UHGV virus genome: UHGV-0177677
Strand: one strand, 5' to 3'
DNA: 38,330 bases
Origin: a virus
Shown: piece by piece, positions 691 to 12,848 of the stretch
Layout: each line of letters begins with the position of its first letter
How positions within the stretch are numbered: the first letter of the stretch is position 1
Notes under the pieces: model-generated
Database searches by the model: none
The model's input: the letters and a program-made list of their open reading frames with translations, nothing else
What the model was told of the DNA's origin: nothing
Translations under genes and position numbers: made by a program

Positions 691-1743
691 TTACGGGGTA
701 ATGCCAACCGCTGCCGCCACTTTGTCGCCACTTGGCAGCGTTGCCAGAGGATTGAAACGGAGCGCCGTTTCCAGATGATCCGGTGCCAGATGTGCGTAAC
801 GCATAGTCATTTTTATATCGTGGTGTCCGAGAATTTTTTGTAAGGCCAGAATGTTTCCACCCGACATCATGAAGTGCGCCGCAAACGTATGGCGCAGAAC
901 GTGTGTGAGTTGACCGCGAGGGAGCACGATAGACGTTTTTTCCATCACGGATAAAAATTGAAAATAGCAGTCTGTGAAGAAATTGAACCCATCAAGCGCC
1001 ATGATCTCTTCGTAAAGCTCTTTACTGATAGGGATGCTTCTGTTTTTCTTCCCCTTCGTTCTTACAAAGGTAATTCGGTATTTGGTCACCTGTGAACGAG
1101 TAAGATTTACGGCTTCTCGCCAGCGTGCGCCTGTGCTTAAGCATATCTTAACTACCAGTGCCAGAATTGGGTCCTGACGTTTGCAATCAGCCAGTAATTC
1201 AACAATCTGCTCATGGGTAAGCCATGCCATCTCTTTTTCTGCGATGGTGAATTTTCGCATGTTCTCCAGTGGGTTCGGATACGACCATTCGCCCAGGCGG
1301 GATAGTTCGCTAAAAACACTACTTAGATAGCTTTGCTCCAGGTTAATGGTGACCGGGCTTGCTCCTTTCTTCCATTTCTCGCTGAAGTAGATCTCACCTG
1401 TCAGGCGTTTATCTCGATAGTGGGCAAACATTTTAGAGGTTAGATCAGTTGCAAGGGGATTGCCCAGAGCGTCAACCATCAGCAGCAATTTGTCATAGAC
1501 ATGCTGCCCAGCAGTCAGTGATTTACCATGTAGTTTGAACCATAGCTCAACCACGTCTTTCAGTGTTCGACGATCCACTGATTCACCTAGCCAGGGCTTT
1601 GCTTCGGTTTCTTCCATCGTGTGACGCTCAAAAGCCAGTGCTTCGCCTTTGGTGGCGAATTGTTTACGCACACGACGCCCACTACGTCCGGCGGGGTAAC
1701 ATTCGCAAAGCCATTTTCCTGTGGTGAGTTTTCGTACAGCCAT
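691..1743 (-). CDS. int: Tyrosine integrase (P2 Int family)
   Basis: Translation MAVRKLTTGKW... with C-terminal tyrosine-recombinase motifs (HVLRHTFAAHF, MRYAHL). ATG at 1741-1743; the track ORF extends further upstream to 1821. Confidence 0.9.
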   Translation of the reverse strand: MAVRKLTTGKWLCECYPAGRSGRRVRKQFATKGEALAFERHTMEETEAKPWLGESVDRRTLKDVVELWFKLHGKSLTAGQHVYDKLLLMVDALGNPLATDLTSKMFAHYRDKRLTGEIYFSEKWKKGASPVTINLEQSYLSSVFSELSRLGEWSYPNPLENMRKFTIAEKEMAWLTHEQIVELLADCKRQDPILALVVKICLSTGARWREAVNLTRSQVTKYRITFVRTKGKKNRSIPISKELYEEIMALDGFNFFTDCYFQFLSVMEKTSIVLPRGQLTHVLRHTFAAHFMMSGGNILALQKILGHHDIKMTMRYAHLAPDHLETALRFNPLATLPSGDKVAAAVGITP

Positions 1744-1931
1744 AAAAAATGCCCTCCAATAGAGAGCATTTTTACTGTATGTATAACCAGTGTCAATGTA
1801 TGAAATCCTGCGACCATACATCTTACTGAAGCCATAATGAAGTAGGCTATTCTTTTTGCTATGTGATCATGTAACTTTTGCGGTTAACCTGTGGCTCATT
1901 TTTATTTTAGGCGCAGATATAAAAGCAAAAG

Positions 1932-2138: not shown

Positions 2139-2714
2139 CTATTTAACATACTTGACTGTTAAACTTATAATTTTACCAATTATTTCAATGTCTTCTATCT
2201 TACATTCAAAGGCTCTGTTTCCACCCTCGACGAAGATTCTTCCACCGGGTAAACGAGTAATGTCACGGATCGTTATTTCGCCATCAATACTTATTACCCA
2301 TTTACCATCACGTATATCATCAAATTCCTTATCACAAATAAATTCAGAATTATTATCTGTGATTACAAAAAGATTCTTGAATGCCGACGGTAGAAATTCT
2401 CTATCGAAAATATAAAAACCGTCTTCACACAAGGCCCCATCAGATAATACATATTTAGCAACTTCCATAGTATTTGTATTACCTGAAGTTTGCTTTGAAC
2501 CATGCCCGGTTGTGAGCCAATTAAGCGAGGTGCCTGTTTCAAGGGCGCACTGGATTACCCATTCTGCTGGGAATGAGTCACGCATGTAGCGTGTGGCGAG
2601 TGTACTTTTAGAGATTCCTAAATGATCGCACAACGCCTGTCGAGTCTTGAATCCATAAGCTTCTACCATGCGCTCTATGGCGCCTCGTCCGCCTTTCTCC
2701 AAATTCATGGTCAC
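2139..2714 (-). CDS. cI: Immunity repressor, phage 186 CI-like
   Basis: 191 aa; N-terminal HTH (AYGF...LCDHLGISKSTLATRYMR, CALETG..NWLTTG) and overall resemblance to 186 CI at the same length. Divergent from apl/cII. Confidence 0.8.
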   Translation of the reverse strand: MTMNLEKGGRGAIERMVEAYGFKTRQALCDHLGISKSTLATRYMRDSFPAEWVIQCALETGTSLNWLTTGHGSKQTSGNTNTMEVAKYVLSDGALCEDGFYIFDREFLPSAFKNLFVITDNNSEFICDKEFDDIRDGKWVISIDGEITIRDITRLPGGRIFVEGGNRAFECKIEDIEIIGKIISLTVKYVK

Positions 2715-2732
2715 TCCAAGTGAACTTTTATC

Positions 2733-2761
2733 TTGACGATTTCACCATGCGATCGTATGTT
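2733..2761 (+). promoter_or_regulatory. Candidate lytic promoter pR (TTGACG-N17-TATGTT)
   Basis: -35 TTGACG at 2733-2738, 17-bp spacer, -10 TATGTT at 2756-2761, in the cI-apl intergenic region and oriented toward apl/cII. Confidence 0.45.
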
Positions 2762-2833
2762 TATGGTGTTCACAAAATACAAACGATCCGTATTCGTCCT
2801 GATTAATCATCATTAAACGAGGAATGTTGCATC

Positions 2834-3055
2834 ATGAGACCTAACATTTCAATCACTCTTACCACGCCTCATGTGACTATTGAACGCTATAGCGAGCTGA
2901 CAGGGCTATCCATCGATACCATCAATGACATGTTGGCTGATGGACGCCTTATCCGTCACCGTCTGCGCAAAGATAAAAAACGCGAAAAAGTGATGATCAA
3001 CATAGCAGCAATGACCGTTGATGCGCTTTCAGAATGCAATCTAAACCTTAATTAG
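2834..3055 (+). CDS. apl: Apl/Cox-like excisionase-regulator (small HTH protein)
   Basis: 73 aa, first gene of the rightward early operon, HTH-like segment ([21 protein letters not shown]). Position matches 186 apl. Confidence 0.55.
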
Positions 3056-4638: not shown

Positions 4639-5492
4639 GCACCATCCTGAAATGGGCGGGAAATAAAACTGCCATAATGTCCGAACTAAAAAAACATCTT
4701 CCTGCTGGCCCGCGACTGGTTGAACCTTTCGCGGGTTCCTGTGCTGTGATGATGGAGACGGATTATCCCAGCTATCTGGTTGCGGATATTAATCCTGATT
4801 TAATCAACCTCTATAAAAAGGTTGCCGCTGATTGTGAATCGTTTATATCTCGCGCCAGAGTTTTATTTGAGATCGCAAACAGGGAGGTGGCTTATTACAA
4901 CATAAGGCAGGAGTTTAATTACTCAACTGAAATTACTGATTTCATGAAAGCGGTATATTTCCTGTATCTCAATCGTCACGGTTACCGTGGTTTATGTCGC
5001 TATAACAAGAGCGGGCATTTCAACATTCCCTACGGTAATTATAAAAATCCGTATTTCCCTGAAAAAGAAATTCGCGCATTTGCAGAAAAGGCCCAGCGAG
5101 CAACGTTTATCTGCGCCAGCTTTGATGAAACGCTGGCGATGTTGAAGGCGGGGGATGTGGTGTATTGCGATCCGCCGTATGACGGTACGTTTTCCGGCTA
5201 TCACACTGACGGCTTCACTGAAGATGACCAGTATCACCTGGCATCTGTTCTTGAACATCGGTCATCAGAAGGACATCCGGTCATTGTTTCTAACAGTGAC
5301 ACATCCCTGATCCGTTCGCTGTATCGCAATTTTACTCACCACTACATCAAGGCAAAACGCAGCATCGGTGTGGCAGCTGGCGAGGGTAAATCAGCAACAG
5401 AAATCATTGCTGTTTCCGGGCCGCGCTGCTGGGTGGGATTTGATTATTCGCGTGGCGTGGATAGTTCTGCCGTGTACGGAGTACGTGCATGA
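4635..5492 (+). CDS. dam: DNA adenine methyltransferase (Dam-like, GATC-type N6-MTase)
   Basis: [11 protein letters not shown]... start, AdoMet motif (PFAGS), catalytic DPPY (CDPPYDG). ATG at 4635 with RBS ggagg. Confidence 0.85.
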
Positions 5493-7903
5493 GTCATGCC
5501 GATATGAACAACTGCTGCGGCTTTAACGAAGCTGCCGCATCGTTCTCATGGAACAGCTCGAAAAAGGCCATTAACCCTTATCTGGACCCGGTGGAAGTTG
5601 CGCCGGTTTCTACGCTTTCAAATCTGATCACTCTGTACGCTGCCGATAACGAGCAGGAACAGCTGCGCCGTGAGGCGCTGAGTGATCAGGTCTGGGAGCG
5701 TTATTTCTTTAATGAATCCCGTGATCCTGTCCAGCGCGAAATGGAACAGGATAAGCTCATTAGTCGGGCAAAGCTGGCGCATGAGCAGCAGCGTTTTAAT
5801 CCGGATATGGTCATTCTGGCGGACGTCAACGCCCAGCCTTCCCATATCAGCAAGCCGCTGATGCAACGTATTGAATACTTCAGCAGCCTGGGCAGGCCAA
5901 AGGCTTATTCCCGCTATTTACGTGAGACGATTAAGCCATGTCTGGAACGACTGGAGCATGTACGCGACAGTCAGCTATCTGCATCTTTTCGCTTTATGGC
6001 AAGCCATGAAGGGCTGGACGGCCTGCTGATCCTGCCTGAAATGAGTCAGGATCAGGTGAAACGCCTGTCCACCCTGGTAGCTGCGCATATGAGTATGTGC
6101 CTTGATGCCGCTTGTGGCGATTTGTATGCCACCGATGACGTTAAGCCAGAAGAAATCCGCAATACATGGGAAAGGGTGGCAGCGGAAACCCTGCGTCTGG
6201 ATGTCATCCCGCCTGCGTTTGAGCAACTCCGTCGGAAAAGAAACCGCCGTAAACCCGTGCCCTATGAACTCATTCCGGGGTCGCTGGCGCGTATGTTGTG
6301 CGCCGACTGGTGGTATCGGAAATTATGGAAGATGCGTTGCGAATGGCGGGAAGAGCAGTTGCGTGCTGTCTGCCTTGTCAGCAAAAAAGCATCTCCCTAT
6401 GTCAGCTATGAAGCCGTGTTGCATAAACGTGAGCAGCGCCGTAAGTCGCTGGAGTTTTTCCGTTCTCATGAACTGGTGAACGAAGACGGCGACACGCTAG
6501 ACATGGAGGATGTGGTAAACGCCAGCAGCAGCAACCCTGCGCATCGCCGCAATGAGATGATGGCCTGTGTTAAAGGTCTGGAGCTTATCGCGGAAATGCG
6601 CGGTGACTGCGCCGTTTTCTACACCATCACCTGTCCGTCACGTTTCCATTCCACGCTAAATAACGGCAGGCCCAACCCGACCTGGACAAATGCGACGGTA
6701 AGACAAAGCAGCGATTATCTGGTCGGTATGTTTGCTGCATTTCGTAAGGCGATGCACAAAGCCGGGTTGCGCTGGTATGGCGTGCGGGTGGCTGAGCCGC
6801 ATCACGACGGTACAGTTCACTGGCACCTGTTGTGTTTTATGCGCAAAAAAGACCGCCGCGCCATCACTGCATTACTGCGTAAGTTTGCCATCCGTGAAGA
6901 CCGCGAGGAGCTGGGCAATAACACTGGGCCGCGCTTTAAGTCTGAGTTGATTAACCCGCGCAAAGGTACGCCAACAAGCTACATCGCGAAATACATCAGT
7001 AAGAACATTGACGGGCGTGGTCTGGCTGGCGAGATCAGCAAGGAAACGGGGAAATCCCTGCGTGATAATGCTGAATACGTTAATGCCTGGGCGTCTCTGC
7101 ATCGTGTTCAGCAATTCCGCTTCTTTGGCATTCCGGGGCGTCAGGCTTACCGTGAACTGCGATTGCTGGCTGGTCAGGCGGCAAGGCAACAGGGGGACAA
7201 AAAAGCAGGTGCGCCGGTACTGGATAACCCGCGCCTTGATGCAATCCTGGCTGCTGCTGATGCTGGTTGTTTTGCCACCTACATCATGAAGCAGGGCGGC
7301 GTACTGGTTCCCCGCAAATATCACCTGATCAGAACCGCTTATGAAATCAACGAAGAGCCGACCGCCTATGGCGATCACGGCATTCGTATTTATGGCATCT
7401 GGTCACCCATTGCAGAGGGCAAGATCTGCACTCATGCAGTGAAGTGGAAAATGGTTCGTAAGGCCGTTGACGTTCAGGAGGCGGCAGCCGACCAGGGCGC
7501 TTGCGCCCCTTGGACTCGTGGCAATAACTGTCCCCTTGCTGAAAATTTGAACCAACAGGAGAAAGATAAATCAGCTGATGGGGACACCAGAACGGATATT
7601 ACCCGCATGGATGACAAGGAGTTGCACGATTTTCTGCACAGTATGAACAAAAAAGAGCGCCGGGAACTGGCTACAAGGTTACGCCTGGTGAAACCGAAAC
7701 GGCGTAGAAACTACAAACAGCGAATTACAGACCATCAACGACAGCAGCTCGTCTATGAACTGAAGTCCAGAGGATTTGATGGCAGCGAGAAAGAGGTAGA
7801 TTTACTCCTTCGCGGTGGCAGTATTCCGTCAGGAGCAGGCCTGCGTATCTTCTATCGGAACCAGCGTCTGAAGGAAGATGATAAGTGGCGGAACCTGTAT
7901 TAA
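5489..7903 (+). CDS. A: Replication initiation protein A (rolling-circle nickase, P2 gpA family)
   Basis: 804 aa; conserved gpA-like motifs ([32 protein letters not shown]). Start overlaps the dam stop (ATGA). Confidence 0.9.
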
Positions 7904-7997
7904 TTACGCGGGTTAACAATTCGTGCTCTTAATAATACCAGGCATATCAGGCCGATGAACGTAAAAAAACGTTTTACATCAGTAAGATTATTATATA

Positions 7998-8013
7998 CTG
8001 TAAATATAAACAG
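7998..8013. promoter_or_regulatory. LexA box (SOS operator) CTGTaaatataaACAG
   Basis: Exact CTGT-N8-ACAG with AT-rich centre (tactgtaaatataaacagtg), about 45 bp upstream of the ORF at 8056. Candidate -35 TTTACA at 7973-7978. Confidence 0.7.
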
Positions 8014-8055
8014 TGGTTATGTATACAGTATTGCTTTGGTGTTATAGGAGGAAAG

Positions 8056-8244
8056 ATGCAGGACTATTTTTTGGAGTCTTTGAAGCTCCAGCGCATTGAT
8101 TTTTTTCTTAAGCTTGTAGCGGCTAGTGAGTGTAGTGATGAAGAGAAGGGGCTGGCCCTGCAGTGGGTTTCTGAACTGACAGATGAACTCATGGCAAAAA
8201 TCAGAACCCACGAATACAACCGCTCAATGGATGTCATCAGCTGA
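8056..8244 (+). CDS. Small SOS-controlled protein, candidate Tum-like antirepressor
   Basis: 62-aa ORF with RBS aggagg, directly downstream of the LexA box and upstream of the DinI-like gene. Position mirrors the 186 tum operon; the assignment is not sequence-proven. Confidence 0.4.
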   Translation: MQDYFLESLKLQRIDFFLKLVAASECSDEEKGLALQWVSELTDELMAKIRTHEYNRSMDVIS

Positions 8245-8254
8245 GGTGACTTTT

Positions 8255-8488
8255 ATGCGCATTGAAATACTGATCGATAAAGAGCAGAAGATTAGCCAGT
8301 CTACACTGGACGCCCTTGAATCCGAGCTTTACCGCAATCTGCGCCCCCTGTATCCCAAAACGGTAATTCGTATCCGCAAAGGTAGCTCTAACGGTGTGGA
8401 ACTGACCGGACTGCAACTGGACGAAGAAAGAAAACAAGTGATGAAAATTATGCAGAAGGTGTGGGAAGACGACAGCTGGCTGCATTAA
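8255..8488 (+). CDS. DinI-family protein
   Basis: Translation from ATG at 8255 (MRIEILIDKEQ...VWEDDSWLH) follows the E. coli DinI pattern (MRIEVTIAK...TWESADDWF). The track ORF starts upstream at 8183. Confidence 0.8.
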   Translation: MRIEILIDKEQKISQSTLDALESELYRNLRPLYPKTVIRIRKGSSNGVELTGLQLDEERKQVMKIMQKVWEDDSWLH

Positions 8489-8647
8489 GAAACGTTGCTG
8501 GCGTCTGAAATTGCTTCTGGCGTCAGCAAGGTTGAACAACGAGTACAGTGAGGCGTTAGGTGTGGCGTTTATTTGATGAGTGAACGCCCGTTCTGCGACA
8601 GGTTTGGAGATTAAGGTTGAAACTACGGGCAAAATACCATCTTTTTC

Positions 8648-9073
8648 CTACTTAATTGAGTCCAGTAACAAGTTACAGTTACTCTCATTGTAGAGAGAAC
8701 GAGCAATTAGTGTTACCTGCTTTCCATTCATTCCCGGCTTATCCCATAACACAGCTTCTTGCGACGCCACAAATTCAGCATAATCAATTATGCGTTGTTC
8801 GTGATCTGGTTCCTCATAGCCAAAGTATGAGAGCGCATCGTTGTAAGCGTGGTAAGCTGCTTTCTGTAATATCTTGATATCGGCTGTAGGTACTTGCTCC
8901 GTGTAGCTAGGATCTAATTGTGTGCTACTGCCATAGAATGCACATGAAAGGTAAGATATTGATTTCTGTTGAGCTTTAGTTCCTTTCTCATAGTTTTTAG
9001 CTGTTACCGCCTGAACTGGGACGCTAACAAAGCTTGCAACCAGAATTAAAATTAATACGTAAAAGCTTTTCAT
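8648..9073 (-). CDS. Secreted/periplasmic hypothetical protein (moron)
   Basis: 141 aa with a signal peptide (MKSFYVLILILVASFVSVPVQA). Opposite strand to the neighbouring phage genes, relatively AT-rich. Confidence 0.5.
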   Translation of the reverse strand: MKSFYVLILILVASFVSVPVQAVTAKNYEKGTKAQQKSISYLSCAFYGSSTQLDPSYTEQVPTADIKILQKAAYHAYNDALSYFGYEEPDHEQRIIDYAEFVASQEAVLWDKPGMNGKQVTLIARSLYNESNCNLLLDSIK

Positions 9074-9345
9074 TTTGACCTCAGCCGAAACGTTAGAGAG
9101 ACTATCGAAGTTTGTAAAACCCGTGGCGATTCAGTTTGAGATCCTCCCCCTTACATGATTTTTAATCAAATATATGCTTTTGTAAGCATACCTGTTAACC
9201 GAATTATTCATTTTTAGAGATCTTCCGACATACTGATTATGCCCGCTGAGGAGTTCACCTTGCGTAAAGTCCGATTCGCTTTACTCGTCTGTGCATGTCT
9301 ATGCTGCATGAGATTGCATGATCGTTTGAGGATCGTTTTTGCTAA

Positions 9346-9371
9346 GGCCCGCCAGAACTGGCGGGCTTTTG
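9346..9371 (+). terminator. Rho-independent terminator-like hairpin
   Basis: gcccgccag / ctggcgggc stem followed by TTTT at 9367-9370. Confidence 0.4.
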
Positions 9372-9415
9372 CGTAGATTATGCACCTGCATGAAAACCAC
9401 TACATAAAGCGGGCA

Positions 9416-9434
9416 GGCGTGGCGGGGATACGAG
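9416..9434. other. Putative cos site (cohesive-end sequence)
   Basis: GGCGTGGCGGGGATACGAG: the first 13 nt equal the start of the 186 cohesive end as I recall it (GGCGTGGCGGGGAAAGCAT; P2 GGCGAGGCGGGGAAAGCAC). Confidence 0.45.
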
Positions 9435-9577
9435 CGCGCGCTTAGATGAAAACATGCGCTGTTAGACAGAAGATAGTCTTAGACTTGAAAGCACTCCTAT
9501 ACCTGGGTAAGTTATTGGAATACTCCCATTGATCTCCCGAAGACGACCTTGTGTTGCAATTTCAACAGGTAATTAAG

Positions 9578-10684
9578 ATGACAGGAAATGTCCCAGTAGT
9601 ACTTAGTGAAGCAGAAATGAAATCCATTTTGACACTAATCACGAGATTTCCATGGAACGTGGCAAAACCTGTTATTTCAGCTCTTGGATTAGCTCGTGGT
9701 AAAGGTAGAGATGCTACTCATGGAAAAATACTGGAAGAATTAACAGAATTAAAGGAAAAGAATTTAAATAAATTTAATGATATCATAAGGTCTGTAAATA
9801 ATTTGATATTTGGTCAATTGGTCTACGGTGATAAAGCTTTTTTTTGTTTATCAGTAGACAACCAAATAATTTCCTCGCTAACAAAGGCTATGAAATTAAA
9901 GTGGGATTTATCTGAACAGCCTTCTGTCGCCTCAGATGTAATCCTTTCTGAGCAGGAAATTAATGCGTCGGGGAAGAATAAAATAAACTTAGTTCATTAT
10001 TCTGAGAGCAATAATCAGGCTTTAGCTCTATTTAGTTCCGTTAGAGAGCAAAAAATTAGAGAGCGGATTTCGCCTAAAAGTTTACCGCAGTACAGTGGCT
10101 ACGAAGAGATCATTGCTACTAAAAAAGAAAAGCATCAATGTTTTGATGTGTGCATTTTTAATAAGACCAACTCTACTATCTCTATTTTGATAGATGCAGG
10201 TATTAATACAATAGGTGAGAGCGTCTTGTTTGCAAAGAGTACTGTAGTAAGAGAACTTTATAATATTATAGGTGCTGAGTTTGCATCAAAAGAAAGAGAT
10301 TTCTTTCCCTTGATTGAACCAATCTTTAAGCAAGATCAAAAACCATACTCAACTCTTAATTATAAAGTTTTTGAGCTTTCATTCCTTACCCCTGAAGGGA
10401 CAACACATAAGGAAAGGAAAACTGACTCCACTAAAGATTTGAGACAAGATATCTTCAATCAAGAAGGTATTAAAGCCGTAGGCAATATCGGACTTTATAG
10501 GATAGGCATCAGGGTTGAGCGAACAAATCCTTTACTACAGTTAGCGGACAATGTAGAACTTACTATACCAGGAACGCTAAGACGGTACCTTGGTGGAAGC
10601 TCTGGTTCACCAGTGAATTTTGCTATACTTAGTAAATGTATCTCTCGTGATGATTTCGAAACGCTTACGAAGCTGATACTATAG
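9578..10684 (+). CDS. Hypothetical protein, gene 1 of AT-rich three-gene accessory cassette
   Basis: About 368 aa from ATG at 9578 (the track ORF uses GTG at 9551). No recognisable motif. Strongly AT-rich. Confidence 0.6.
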   Translation: MTGNVPVVLSEAEMKSILTLITRFPWNVAKPVISALGLARGKGRDATHGKILEELTELKEKNLNKFNDIIRSVNNLIFGQLVYGDKAFFCLSVDNQIISSLTKAMKLKWDLSEQPSVASDVILSEQEINASGKNKINLVHYSESNNQALALFSSVREQKIRERISPKSLPQYSGYEEIIATKKEKHQCFDVCIFNKTNSTISILIDAGINTIGESVLFAKSTVVRELYNIIGAEFASKERDFFPLIEPIFKQDQKPYSTLNYKVFELSFLTPEGTTHKERKTDSTKDLRQDIFNQEGIKAVGNIGLYRIGIRVERTNPLLQLADNVELTIPGTLRRYLGGSSGSPVNFAILSKCISRDDFETLTKLIL

Positions 10685-10696
10685 CTGGAGACAAAA

Positions 10697-11125
10697 ATGA
10701 AGGATGCTAACTTGGCAAAGACTATACAAGACATATGCTCAGAACGCCCAGAAGTGGGAGTTTTGGCGTGCATGTTTTATGAAAAACTTGCTAAGTTAGC
10801 AGCTCGCTCTCCTAATATATTCATTAGTTATAACCTTTTATTTGATATAGCGATTTCGAATAAGGGGGGCGCTAAAGTGGATGAGCATGATATTTACTTG
10901 GCTATCCAAGTTTTGTGTAATCCAAAAGTTAATTTTTTGAAATTAAACTATCAATTTATAGACGATGGTTTCGATCCAGTTAATATAAGCATTGCGGACG
11001 TGATTGATGCTGAAGATAATCAAGGTTTAGAGCATCCATATACTGGTGAGATTGTGCCAGACTACAAAAAATATGTATTTCCTTTCTTTACAGTTATTAA
11101 TTTCACAAAGGAAGGGGCGTACTAA
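10697..11125 (+). CDS. Hypothetical protein, gene 2 of the accessory cassette
   Basis: 142 aa, RBS ggaga, 12 bp after gene 1. No recognisable motif. Confidence 0.6.
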   Translation: MKDANLAKTIQDICSERPEVGVLACMFYEKLAKLAARSPNIFISYNLLFDIAISNKGGAKVDEHDIYLAIQVLCNPKVNFLKLNYQFIDDGFDPVNISIADVIDAEDNQGLEHPYTGEIVPDYKKYVFPFFTVINFTKEGAY

Positions 11126-11772
11126 TGCTTACAAGTCTGGATGATTTGGAGAAAAACTTTCATTTGCAGAAGGTTCACTTTGCCATTCAAAGGATTCAAT
11201 TTGCGTTGGAGTCCTATTCTAATTTCAACAGTCTTGTTCGAAAGGAGCTGGATTACGCTGTAAGTAAATTAGAGCAAAATGGCAATAAAATTAACTTTGA
11301 TCTCTCTGAAGATCAGTTAACTCTATATTTGCTTTCGTATGTTGAAAATAGATATCTGGGGCTCGAAGCCAGTCACGAGAAGAACCAGAGAGGACATTGT
11401 GATATATCTATTACCCTTGCAGATTATATCTGGCATGGGGAAGCTAAAAAACATTCTTCATATTTATATCTTTTTAAAGGTTATGCACAACTTACCGAGC
11501 GGTATAGTACTGGGACTATAAATAGCTCTTCGGGTGGTTTAATTATTTATACGAAAAACGCTTCCTGTTCTGACATGATGGATTCATGGAAAACATTCTT
11601 ATCAAAGAATGCACCTAGGATTCATGCTTGTAAATCCGTTAATATTATTGATTGCCCAAAAAACCCCTTGGTTTTTTATAGTCAGCACCTTCATACTGTA
11701 AGTAAGCTGGATTATCAAGTTGTGCATTATCCTGTATCATTACATCATAAACCTATAGACCCTGATCTATAG
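11125..11772 (+). CDS. Hypothetical protein with possible PD-(D/E)xK nuclease-like motif, gene 3 of the accessory cassette
   Basis: 215 aa; start overlaps the gene 2 stop (TAATG). Segment GHCDISITLADYIWHGEAKK fits D-x12-E-x-K. Confidence 0.55.
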   Translation: MLTSLDDLEKNFHLQKVHFAIQRIQFALESYSNFNSLVRKELDYAVSKLEQNGNKINFDLSEDQLTLYLLSYVENRYLGLEASHEKNQRGHCDISITLADYIWHGEAKKHSSYLYLFKGYAQLTERYSTGTINSSSGGLIIYTKNASCSDMMDSWKTFLSKNAPRIHACKSVNIIDCPKNPLVFYSQHLHTVSKLDYQVVHYPVSLHHKPIDPDL

Positions 11773-11807: not shown

Positions 11808-12848
11808 TTATTGCTCAATTGAGAGCTGATACGCTTCAAAATTTATTACTTTTTCCTCAATCCATTCGTTCAGTTCGCACATACGTTTCTGCAATGGCTG
11901 CAGTTCGTTACGTACAAAAACGCGAGCGGCTTTTTCCACATCCCCAAACCCCCCGACATTATTAGGCATAATCCCCATCATTTGCGGCGGCACGCGATGC
12001 GCTGCCATCATGTCATCCCGACTCACGTTCTTGATGTTAAGAAATTCATCCTTCGCCGCGACTTCTGACAATGGGATGATCTGAAGCCCGTCTTTTTTAC
12101 CGTTAGGCGAGTACATAAACAAGTTGCGGAAGTTGCCTGGACCTTTGGCGCTTTTCATTGCGTTGCGGAGGTTGTTCACATCCTCCTGGTTTTGCGCGGC
12201 ATCGGTCATGTACATGATGAAGCCTGCATGACTACCGTTAATGTAATACTTCCGGCGGAACAGCGTGGCGGACTCGTTGAGCAGAGCGGACGGAATGGCA
12301 GAAAGATAACCGGGCAGGCCGTAGATCTCCTGGTTGATGTCCGGTTCCAACAGATGAAAGATGCTGCCTTTCGTGAACTGATACGGCTGGGTTGTCATAC
12401 CGTATTGCACAAACCAGTAGGTATCCAGGTCTAACCCGCGTCGGGTGTATTTTGCCAGCGCAGGCTCAAGAGCGATGACCTCTCCGAAGCGGTTCGTGCG
12501 TTTTTCCAGGTAGGCGTTACCAAAAACCAGATAGTCCTGTACAAAACGCGAAAAAGCCTGCTGGCTGAGCAGCGGGTGAGGGATGTAGGTGCTGGTCAGA
12601 ATGTTGCATTTCACCGCAATTGGTGAACTGTGATGCACGGCAGCGCGGAAGGTGCGCGCCAGTCCGTCAAAGCTGACAGGAGGCTCATACCAGCGATCTG
12701 TCTGTACGCATTCCACATAGTCCAGCAGTTCGCGGCGGTCAAGTACAGGAACGGGATCACCGAAGCTGAATGCTTCGGCTGAAGTCTGGCTTTTATGCTT
12801 GAGCTGATTCGTCGCCGCAGCGCGGTTTTTCTTACTCTTTCCCATCAA
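11808..12848 (-). CDS. Q: Portal protein (P2 gpQ)
   Basis: 346 aa, MMGKSKKNRAAA... P2 Q-like N-terminus. Adjacent to and overlapping the terminase gene. Confidence 0.9.
   Translation of the reverse strand: MMGKSKKNRAAATNQLKHKSQTSAEAFSFGDPVPVLDRRELLDYVECVQTDRWYEPPVSFDGLARTFRAAVHHSSPIAVKCNILTSTYIPHPLLSQQAFSRFVQDYLVFGNAYLEKRTNRFGEVIALEPALAKYTRRGLDLDTYWFVQYGMTTQPYQFTKGSIFHLLEPDINQEIYGLPGYLSAIPSALLNESATLFRRKYYINGSHAGFIMYMTDAAQNQEDVNNLRNAMKSAKGPGNFRNLFMYSPNGKKDGLQIIPLSEVAAKDEFLNIKNVSRDDMMAAHRVPPQMMGIMPNNVGGFGDVEKAARVFVRNELQPLQKRMCELNEWIEEKVINFEAYQLSIEQ

What the first reader, a model, noticed from the sequence alone, without database searches (positions are those of the whole stretch)
7960..8488. 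Perfect LexA box controlling a two-gene module (small ORF plus DinI-like)
CTGTaaatataaACAG at 7998-8013 overlaps the promoter of a 62-aa ORF and a DinI-family gene. By analogy with the 186 tum operon this is the likely SOS-induction switch, with the 62-aa product a candidate antirepressor, and the DinI-like protein could modulate RecA. The two ORFs together total about 140 aa, close to the 146 aa I recall for 186 Tum, so they may be a split form of a single tum-like gene.
Basis: partly seen in the sequence, partly recalled or inferred. Interest (0 to 1): 0.45.

Follow-up and report, generated by a model that had tools for sequence, protein, structure and literature searches.

The report
LexA-controlled split tum (tumA/tumB) operon
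This is the DNA-damage switch of a Fels-2/186-type P2-like prophage: a LexA-repressed promoter driving a small antirepressor gene and a DinI-like gene. The arrangement is already described for phages Fels-2 and PSP3 and is present in about a fifth of complete E. coli genomes, so it is real but ordinary.

Summary
A LexA box (TACTGTAAATATAAACAGTG, 7996-8015) lies 58 nt upstream of a 62-aa ORF (8056-8244), which is followed by a 77-aa DinI-family gene (8255-8488), just downstream of the gpA-like replication gene of a 186-type prophage.

The DinI-like protein aligns with 186 Tum residues 71-145 (41% identity). The 62-aa protein is a remote homologue of the Tum N-terminal antirepressor domain by profile searches and hhalign, though not by BLASTP.

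Both proteins are 98-99% identical to Fels-2 STM2728 and STM2726.1. [quoted passage not shown] It is therefore already known.

Refinements:
- The two ORFs are in different frames, each with its own Shine-Dalgarno sequence, so this is not a broken gene.
- The fused form is seen only in the 186-type clade.
- TumA-only phages exist.

One new observation: the identical TumA accompanies at least five or six CI types whose HTH domain is conserved and whose C-terminal domain is not. This suggests a broadly acting antirepressor.

The parts
7973..7978 (+). Putative -35 hexamer TTTACA of the p95-like SOS promoter
   Evidence: Read from the sequence. 17-bp spacing to TACTGT. Same layout as the annotated 186 p95 promoter, TTCACA-18 bp-TACTGT. 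Not called by the generic sigma-70 scan, because the -10 matches only 3 of 6 positions. Inferred.
7996..8015 (.). LexA operator (SOS box) TACTGTAAATATAAACAGTG; core CTGT-N8-ACAG at 7998-8013. Its left half, TACTGT (7996-8001), doubles as the putative -10.
   Evidence: 17/20 to consensus; 0 of 100 shuffles. Conserved position in 78 of 83 close relatives. An equivalent box lies 36-59 nt upstream of Tum/TumA in 186, PSP3, Fels-2, ESSI-2, ev040 and YenM_06.16-2. 186 annotates the equivalent site as a LexA binding site.
8046..8051 (+). Shine-Dalgarno sequence AGGAGG of tumA
   Evidence: Sequence; 4 nt before the ATG at 8056.
8056..8244 (+). tumA-like gene: 62-aa candidate antirepressor (Fels-2 STM2728 orthologue, phrog_698)
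   Evidence: 98.4% identical to Fels-2 STM2728. Remote homologue of 186 Tum 1-70 and PSP3 TumA. AlphaFold model is a two-helix hairpin (H5-23, H28-61), mean pLDDT 85.5.
8233..8250 (+). Small hairpin spanning the tumA stop codon and the tumB Shine-Dalgarno sequence (GAGG 8243-8246)
   Evidence: One site found against 1.2 expected by chance, so it may be fortuitous. A possible role in translational coupling is speculation.
8255..8488 (+). tumB-like gene: 77-aa DinI-family protein (Fels-2 STM2726.1 orthologue)
   Evidence: PF06183 E 6.8e-23. phrog_189 positions 71-148 of 151. 41% identical to 186 Tum 71-145. 78% identical to PSP3 TumB and 98.7% to Fels-2. E. coli DinI 1GHH E 2.8e-6, with the C-terminal acidic helix aligned.
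8491..8533 (+). Strong hairpin just after tumB; possible end of the operon, but no U-tract
   Evidence: RNA fold. Not called as an intrinsic terminator. The next gene (8648-9073) is on the opposite strand.
2139..2714 (-). cI: 186-type immunity repressor, the presumed target of TumA
   Evidence: PF07022 (CI HTH) E 2.8e-33 plus PF16452 (CI C-terminal domain) E 2.7e-27. The Peptidase_S24 hit is below its cut-off (16.3 against 23.3 bits). It lies beside apl-, cII- and fil-like genes.

Best explanation
The region is the SOS-induction operon of a Fels-2/186-type P2-like prophage. In the lysogen, a LexA dimer occupies the box at 7996-8015, which covers the -10 element and the likely start site of a p95-like promoter, keeping tumA-tumB silent. 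DNA damage activates RecA and LexA cleaves itself, so the bicistronic mRNA is made. TumA (62 aa, a helical hairpin) binds the 186-type CI repressor, which has no autocleavage domain, and stops it binding its operators. The early lytic promoter then fires and the prophage is induced. TumB (77 aa, DinI-like) binds RecA filaments and tunes the strength or duration of the SOS signal; it is accessory rather than essential. Shown here: the sequence features, the homologies, the gene context and their conservation. Shown by others for close relatives: LexA dependence of Fels-2 lysogeny, 186 Tum acting as an antirepressor, and PSP3 tumA assigned to UV induction. Inferred: that this particular TumA binds this CI, and the role of TumB.
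For: LexA box. Promoter layout identical to the annotated p95 of 186. TumA homologous to the Tum N-domain and to PSP3 TumA. TumB corresponds to the Tum C-domain and to DinI. Position directly after the gpA-like gene, as in 186, PSP3 and Fels-2. CI is 186-type and shows no credible S24 protease domain. Literature: Tum inhibits CI and is expressed from LexA-regulated p95 (PMC7708051). [quoted passage not shown] Fels-2 has the same 20-mer box and proteins 98-99% identical. Phages with a LexA box and TumA but no DinI gene (ESSI-2, ev040, YenM_06.16-2) indicate that the induction function resides in TumA.
Against: No experiment exists, in the papers I could read, for the phrog_698-type TumA itself; the PSP3 assignment is a personal communication quoted second-hand. 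Homology to the Tum N-domain is remote: BLASTP finds nothing and the hhalign probability is only 76%. The -10 element is weak (3 of 6) and the generic promoter scan does not call it. The identical TumA occurs with CI proteins only 37-58% identical to this one, which a strictly cognate antirepressor-repressor pair would not predict.
Confidence: 0.8

Rival explanations
1. The module is an SOS-induced accessory ('moron') pair. It modulates host RecA through the DinI-like protein, with a small protein of unrelated function, and does not control prophage induction, which would be triggered some other way.
For: DinI homologues are common LexA-regulated cargo in other prophages, where deleting them does not affect induction (Gifsy phages, PMC3121763). 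RefSeq and INPHARED label the 62-aa gene 'hypothetical protein'. TumA is not matched one-to-one with a CI type.
Against: CI has no cleavage domain, so another SOS-responsive inducer is needed. TumA is homologous to the proven antirepressor domain of 186 Tum and to PSP3 TumA. TumA with a LexA box is retained in phages that lack the DinI gene. Loss of LexA is lethal in LT2 because of Fels-2.
Confidence: 0.1
2. The two ORFs are the debris of a fused tum gene broken by mutation (a pseudogene), and the prophage is no longer SOS-inducible.
For: 186 and 78 of 80 close 186-type relatives carry a single 146-aa gene. The sizes add up (139 against 146 aa).
Against: Each ORF has its own Shine-Dalgarno sequence and ATG. 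The pair lies in different frames, and the 20-nt junction is identical in 80 of 83 loci. The same arrangement occurs in 1125 of 5426 complete E. coli genomes and in functional phages: Fels-2, RE2010, and PSP3 with named tumA and tumB genes. TumA is 100% conserved across 80 IMG/VR loci while neighbouring DNA varies. 186 itself makes the DinI-like part separately from an internal GTG start.
Confidence: 0.03
3. The LexA-like palindrome is a chance match, or is bound by a different regulator, and the operon is not under SOS control.
For: The bare CTGT-N8-ACAG pattern is expected 0.6 times per window. Five of 83 relatives lack the perfect core, and in one a group II intron separates the box from tumA.
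Against: A 17/20 match to the full consensus appears in none of 100 shuffles. A box lies at the equivalent place in seven divergent phages whose flanks show little or no similarity. The equivalent 186 site is the annotated LexA operator of p95. The genetics of Fels-2 point the same way.
Confidence: 0.04

Closest known systems
Fels-2 prophage STM2728 / STM2726.1 (Salmonella LT2), the 'split tum' of Bunny et al. 2002 as cited by Lemire et al. 2011
   Same: Same position after the gpA-like gene. Identical 20-mer LexA box 58-59 nt before the ATG. TumA 98.4% and TumB 98.7% identical. Same 10-nt spacer and +1 frame offset.
   Different: The CI repressor differs: 70% identity in the HTH domain but only 26% in the C-terminal domain. 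The downstream cargo genes also differ.
PSP3 tumA / tumB (NC_005340; tumA annotated 'UV induction of prophage')
   Same: LexA box, then a 60-aa tumA, then a 77-aa DinI-like tumB. TumB is 78% identical.
   Different: TumA belongs to a different subfamily (phrog_1993 against phrog_698) at about 20% identity. PSP3's two genes are in the same frame, separated by one stop codon and 3 nt. The box is 38 nt from the start codon.
Coliphage 186 p95-tum operon (Tum, 146 aa)
   Same: A LexA-repressed promoter whose -10 is the TACTGT half of the box. An N-terminal antirepressor module plus a C-terminal DinI-like module. The same genome position and the same type of CI, Apl and CII switch.
   Different: In 186 the two modules are one polypeptide, with nested internal starts that also yield the DinI-like part alone. 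The operon continues into orf97, which is absent here.
Gifsy-1/2/3 dinI-gfoA/gftA operons of Salmonella
   Same: A LexA-controlled operon pairing a DinI homologue with a small antirepressor that inactivates a non-cleavable repressor (PMC3121763).
   Different: The gene order is reversed (dinI first). The antirepressors and repressors are unrelated in sequence, and the phages are lambdoid. TumB is only about 33% identical to the Gifsy DinI homologues.

Membership tests
LexA-regulated (SOS) promoter | 16-bp CTGT-N8-ACAG palindrome with an AT-rich spacer, close to the 20-bp consensus TACTGTATATATATACAGTA | tested here: met
   17/20 match at 7996-8015. Unique in the window, and 0 of 100 shuffles give a match.
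LexA-regulated (SOS) promoter | The operator overlaps the core promoter or transcription start of the regulated gene | tested here: inconclusive
   TTTACA-17 bp-TACTGT mirrors the annotated 186 p95 promoter, but the generic scan does not call it and no transcription start data are available.
LexA-regulated (SOS) promoter | The site is conserved in front of orthologous genes while the flanks diverge | tested here: met
   A box lies 36-59 nt upstream of Tum/TumA in seven phages from five genera. It is kept in 78 of 83 close relatives.
LexA-regulated (SOS) promoter | LexA binds, and the gene is derepressed on DNA damage | not testable with these tools
Tum / TumA antirepressor (186 Tum N-domain, PSP3 TumA) | Sequence homology to the Tum N-terminal domain | tested here: met
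   Remote but consistent and in register. Tum 1-70 against phrog_698, E 6.7e-6. ORF62 against phrog_8554, E 2.4e-8, and phrog_1993, E 2.2e-3. The Yersinia 'tum protein' bridges all four families. hhalign E 2.2e-5, probability 76%. BLASTP is negative.
Tum / TumA antirepressor (186 Tum N-domain, PSP3 TumA) | First gene of a LexA-box operon immediately downstream of the gpA-type replication gene in a P2-like phage | tested here: met
Tum / TumA antirepressor (186 Tum N-domain, PSP3 TumA) | The phage has a 186-type, non-autocleaving CI repressor | tested here: met
   PF07022 plus PF16452; the Peptidase_S24 hit is below its cut-off.
Tum / TumA antirepressor (186 Tum N-domain, PSP3 TumA) | Binds CI and blocks operator binding; its expression induces the prophage | not testable with these tools
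   Known for 186 Tum and reported for PSP3 TumA through a personal communication. Not tested for this subfamily in any paper I could read.
Fused Tum (single 146-aa polypeptide, as in 186) | N-domain and DinI-like domain in one open reading frame | tested here: not met
   A TGA stop at 8242-8244, a 10-nt spacer and a new ATG at 8255 in a different frame (offset 199 nt). This is the tumA/tumB form.
DinI family (PF06183) | Pfam DinI domain above the gathering threshold | tested here: met
   81.2 bits against 24.2; residues 14-76 cover profile positions 1-63 of 63.
DinI family (PF06183) | Conserved C-terminal acidic helix that contacts RecA in E. coli DinI | tested here: met
   The alignment to 1GHH covers residues 1-75, with KIMQKVWEDDSW aligned to EILQETWESADDW. 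That this helix is the RecA-contacting part rests on the title of reference 28 of PMC3121763.
DinI family (PF06183) | Binds RecA filaments and modulates the SOS response | not testable with these tools
   Inferred from family membership and from the 186 annotation 'modulates SOS induction'.

The most novel reading that the evidence does not exclude
The Fels-2-type TumA may be a 'master-key' antirepressor. The identical 62-aa protein sits in prophages carrying at least five or six different CI types, whose C-terminal oligomerisation domains are only 25-46% identical but whose HTH N-domains stay 67-100% identical, with a nearly invariant SKST(L/M)A.RY.RD.FPA.W.IQCALETG segment. That would mean TumA recognises the conserved DNA-binding domain and can induce heteroimmune Fels-2-like prophages in trans. 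Such cross-induction would be relevant to the E. coli genomes that hold two or three copies of the module. The alternative is that the pattern only reflects genus-level linkage and recombination breakpoints.
Probability: 0.35. Interest if true: 0.4.

Novelty: already known. Interest (0 to 1): 0.2.

Why it matters
This module decides when a very common family of E. coli, Salmonella and Klebsiella prophages leaves lysogeny after DNA damage, including damage caused by antibiotics. Recognising the 62-aa 'hypothetical protein' as tumA corrects an annotation gap that affects more than a thousand complete E. coli genomes. It adds no new biology, because the split tum arrangement and its LexA control were described for Fels-2 and PSP3 two decades ago. 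The one point that could repay an experiment is that a single invariant TumA accompanies many CI variants. That would predict cross-induction between co-resident P2-like prophages, as has been shown for the Gifsy phages.

Tried and rejected
- Pairwise BLASTP of ORF62 against 186 Tum, ORF62 against PSP3 TumA, and PSP3 TumA against 186 Tum found nothing. These N-domains are too divergent, so profile methods were needed.
- Searches for fused ORF62+DinI proteins found none. None of the 120 listed close relatives has a Pfam DinI hit. The 66 representatives found by phmmer against 1.84 billion proteins are nearly all 35-105 aa, and the few longer ones match only at their C-terminal ends.
- The generic promoter and terminator scan does not call the p95-like promoter or a terminator after tumB. 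Rfam finds no RNA family in 7850-9600.
- TumA has no relative of solved structure in the PDB. I did not run a fold search on the model, because a two-helix hairpin would match indiscriminately.
- PADLOC and Pfam find nothing for the downstream cargo genes.
- I looked for one-to-one co-variation of TumA with CI and rejected it. The identical TumA pairs with many CI types. 186-type Tum likewise pairs with CI N-domains 43-100% identical to that of 186. Only a class-level association remains.
- Bunny et al. 2002 could not be read, so its content is cited through PMC3121763, PMC8072944 and PMC12626290.
- Two comparative-genomics papers on P2-like and 186-type phages do not mention tum at all.
- I did not compute a LexA heterology index, because I did not have the reference frequency table.

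Full report
**1. What is in the sequence**

The window is a P2-like (Peduoviridae) prophage with a 186-type lysis-lysogeny switch.
- It has an integrase (691-1821, minus strand).
- It has a CI repressor with the 186-type HTH and C-terminal domains (2139-2714, minus strand). The Peptidase_S24 hit is below threshold.
- These are followed by apl-, cII- and fil-like genes, a Dam methylase and an 804-aa gpA-type replication protein (5489-7903).

- The palindrome CTGTAAATATAAACAG is at 7998-8013. It is the only CTGT-N8-ACAG in 38 kb.
- The bare pattern is expected 0.6 times per window, so on its own it proves nothing.
- The full 20-mer TACTGTAAATATAAACAGTG (7996-8015) matches the LexA consensus at 17 of 20 positions. 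No match of that quality occurs in 100 dinucleotide-preserving shuffles.
- A 62-aa ORF with a strong Shine-Dalgarno sequence (AGGAGG, 8046-8051) starts 58 nt downstream, at 8056.
- It ends at 8244. After a 10-nt spacer containing GAGG, a 77-aa ORF (8255-8488) begins in another frame.

**2. The two proteins**

The 77-aa protein is a clear DinI-family member.
- Pfam PF06183 scores 81.2 bits against a cut-off of 24.2.
- E. coli DinI (PDB 1GHH) matches at E 2.8e-6, with the C-terminal acidic helix aligned.
- In PHROGs it matches positions 71-148 of a 151-position profile. That profile evidently includes full-length Tum proteins.
- It is 41% identical to residues 71-145 of 186 Tum (E 3e-24). The alignment begins exactly at the internal GTG start that the 186 record annotates as 'truncated Tum - modulates SOS induction'.

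The 62-aa protein has no Pfam family and belongs to phrog_698, of unknown function. BLASTP against 186 Tum finds nothing. Profile methods do find a relationship:
- The N-terminal 70 residues of 186 Tum hit phrog_698 at E 6.7e-6, residues 7-44 on profile positions 7-44.
- ORF62 and Tum-N both hit phrog_8554 (2.4e-8 and 3.3e-12) and phrog_1993 (2.2e-3 and 2e-23).
- phrog_1993 is the family of PSP3 TumA (E 2.7e-32).
- A 60-aa Yersinia phage 'tum protein' in phrog_8554 hits all of phrog_698, phrog_1993 and the N-terminus of phrog_189.
- I built an alignment of clear ORF62 relatives and another of clear Tum-N relatives, independently. They align by hhalign over 41 columns in register (3-43 against 3-43), E 2.2e-5, probability 76%.
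- The shared motif is roughly (E/Q)R(I/V)(D/E)hhh+h...C...(D/E)+..AL.h(I/V).E(L/I).
- AlphaFold models ORF62 as a two-helix hairpin at mean pLDDT 85.5.
- A phmmer search of 1.84 billion representatives finds only 66 relatives, nearly all of them 35-105 aa.

**3. It is the Fels-2 / PSP3 'split tum'**

- ORF62 is 98.4% identical to Fels-2 STM2728, annotated 'hypothetical protein'. The DinI-like protein is 98.7% identical to STM2726.1, whose annotation already notes similarity to PSP3 TumB.
- Fels-2 has the same 20-mer box, 59 nt from the ATG.
- PSP3 annotates the equivalent genes as tumA ('similar to 5' end 186 tum; UV induction of prophage') and tumB.
- Lemire et al. 2011 (PMC3121763) state that Tum looks like a fusion of an antirepressor with DinI. 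[quoted passage not shown] They cite Bunny et al. 2002 and a personal communication from G. Christie.
[quoted passage not shown] That is the behaviour expected of a LexA-repressed antirepressor.
- I could not read Bunny et al. itself.
- For 186, induction through LexA-regulated p95 and inhibition of CI by Tum is standard (PMC7708051).

**4. Promoter and operator**

- The best promoter reading is -35 TTTACA (7973-7978), a 17-bp spacer, then -10 TACTGT (7996-8001).
- This is the architecture annotated for 186 p95 (TTCACA, 18 bp, TACTGT), where the -10 is the left half of the LexA site.
- The generic scan does not call it, because TACTGT matches TATAAT at only 3 of 6 positions. The promoter is therefore inferred by analogy.

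Comparative evidence for the operator is good.
- 186, PSP3, Fels-2, Cronobacter phage ESSI-2, Escherichia phage ev040 and Yersinia phage YenM_06.16-2 represent five genera.
- All have TACTGT-N8-ACAGT 36-59 nt before the start of their Tum or TumA gene, although outside the closest pairs the surrounding DNA shows little or no similarity.
- I compared 83 loci carrying this tumA: the window, two phage records and 80 IMG/VR loci. The identical 20-mer is present in 69, single-base variants in 9, and the perfect core is lost in 5.
- In 69 distinct aligned sequences, the promoter and box vary less (mean minor-allele frequency 0.004-0.009) than the 5'UTR just downstream (0.054).
- After tumB there is a strong hairpin (8491-8533) without a U-tract, and the next gene is on the opposite strand. 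Here the operon is just two genes; the 186 orf97 is absent.

**5. Split or fused?**

- In the window and in Fels-2 the two genes are offset by 199 nt, so they lie in different frames. In PSP3 the offset is 186 nt, so they share a frame and are separated by one stop codon; tblastn reads straight through.
- Each gene has its own ribosome-binding site. The 20-nt junction is identical in 80 of 83 loci.
- The module occurs in 1125 of 5426 complete E. coli genomes, annotated 'hypothetical protein | DinI-like family protein'.
- It is therefore not a decayed gene.
- Fused 146-aa Tum is found in 78 of the 80 IMG/VR loci closest to 186, but only in that clade.
- Short stand-alone proteins of 63-78 aa that are 75-95% identical to the 186 Tum N-domain, several of them named 'Tum protein', also exist. 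Their genomic context was not examined.
- ESSI-2, ev040 and YenM_06.16-2 carry a LexA box and TumA with no DinI gene at all.
- 186 still translates the DinI-like part separately from an internal GTG preceded by AAGGAGG.
- This distribution fits 186 Tum being a fusion of two genes, as Lemire et al. suggested, at least as well as the reverse. I did not build a phylogeny, so the direction remains open.

**6. An observation beyond the finding**

All 80 IMG/VR loci retrieved with the ORF62 family alignment encode a 100% identical TumA, and their gpA (95-99%) and CII (92-100%) are also conserved. Their CI proteins, however, fall into at least five or six types that are 37-100% identical to the window's. 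Apl varies with them.

Splitting CI by domain gives the following:
- The HTH N-domain (residues 7-72) stays 67-100% identical, with a nearly invariant SKST(L/M)A.RY.RD.FPA.W.IQCALETG segment.
- The C-terminal domain (93-191) falls to 25-46% identity.
- The operator regions are not alignable between types.

Phages with other Tum or TumA types (186, PSP3, YenM_06.16-2, ESSI-2) have CI N-domains only 39-59% identical to the window's. None of the 80 loci with 186-type Tum has a Fels-2-type N-domain; the best is 51%.

This suggests that TumA recognises the conserved DNA-binding domain and could act across CI types. Two things weaken the argument:
- 186-type Tum also accompanies CI N-domains that range from 43% to 100% identity to that of 186.
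- The class-level association could simply reflect genus-level linkage.

I rate this reading at about 0.35.

**7. Verdict**

The feature is the tumA-tumB SOS operon of a Fels-2-like prophage. It works like the 186 p95-tum operon and is a member of the already described split form. It is common and already known, so interest is low. The practical value is an annotation correction: the 62-aa 'hypothetical protein' is tumA. There is also a modest testable idea about a broadly acting antirepressor.

Noticed in passing
L005:6031-8001 (IMGVR_UViG_2634166506_000002): A group II intron of about 1.95 kb is inserted on the coding strand between the LexA box (6031-6049) and tumA (8001), inside the 5'UTR of the SOS-induced mRNA. 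Evidence: Rfam RF02005 at 6083-6308, 186.6 bits, and a 495-aa reverse transcriptase/maturase ORF at 6413-7900 with a YADD motif. The box and tumA are otherwise intact.
   Followed up: partly
L009, L021, L026, L041, L045, L068, L080 (cI genes); also PSP3 cI in L089:1219-2079: Some CI repressors in these otherwise near-identical prophages are 308-318 aa long and carry two tandem copies of the CI HTH N-domain. PSP3 CI (286 aa) has the same layout.
   Followed up: no
window 2139-3055 compared with L005-L084: The cI-apl immunity cassette is exchanged as a mosaic block: CI is 37-100% identical and Apl ranges from absent to 100%. The flanking cII, gpA and tumA stay 92-100% identical. The window's own CI type is at most about 56% identical to any CI in the INPHARED phage collection, although it occurs in IMG/VR loci.
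   Followed up: partly
window 8648-11772: This is a cargo block between tumB and the next long ORF (11808-12848, minus strand), which by its position relative to the equivalent locus of phage vB_EcoM-813R9 is probably the portal gene; I did not test that ORF. The block holds a 141-aa signal-peptide protein on the minus strand (phrog_7437) and three plus-strand genes of 377, 142 and 215 aa (phrog_12777, 11490, 9664). All are of unknown function, with no significant Pfam hit and no PADLOC hit. Related phages carry different cargo at this position.
   Followed up: partly
window 8255-8488 compared with L005-L084: tumB occurs as two allele groups, 94-99% and 83-87% identical to the window's protein, next to an invariant tumA. 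This suggests a recombination breakpoint at the tumA-tumB junction.
   Followed up: no
window 8233-8250: A six-pair hairpin (GTCATCAGCTGAGGTGAC) spans the tumA stop codon and the tumB Shine-Dalgarno sequence and is followed by TTTTAT. It may couple or limit tumB translation, or it may be chance: one site found against 1.2 expected.
   Followed up: no
E. coli complete genomes: Some genomes carry two or three copies of the tumA-tumB module, 7 places are on plasmids, and RefSeq annotates tumA as 'hypothetical protein' throughout.
   Followed up: no
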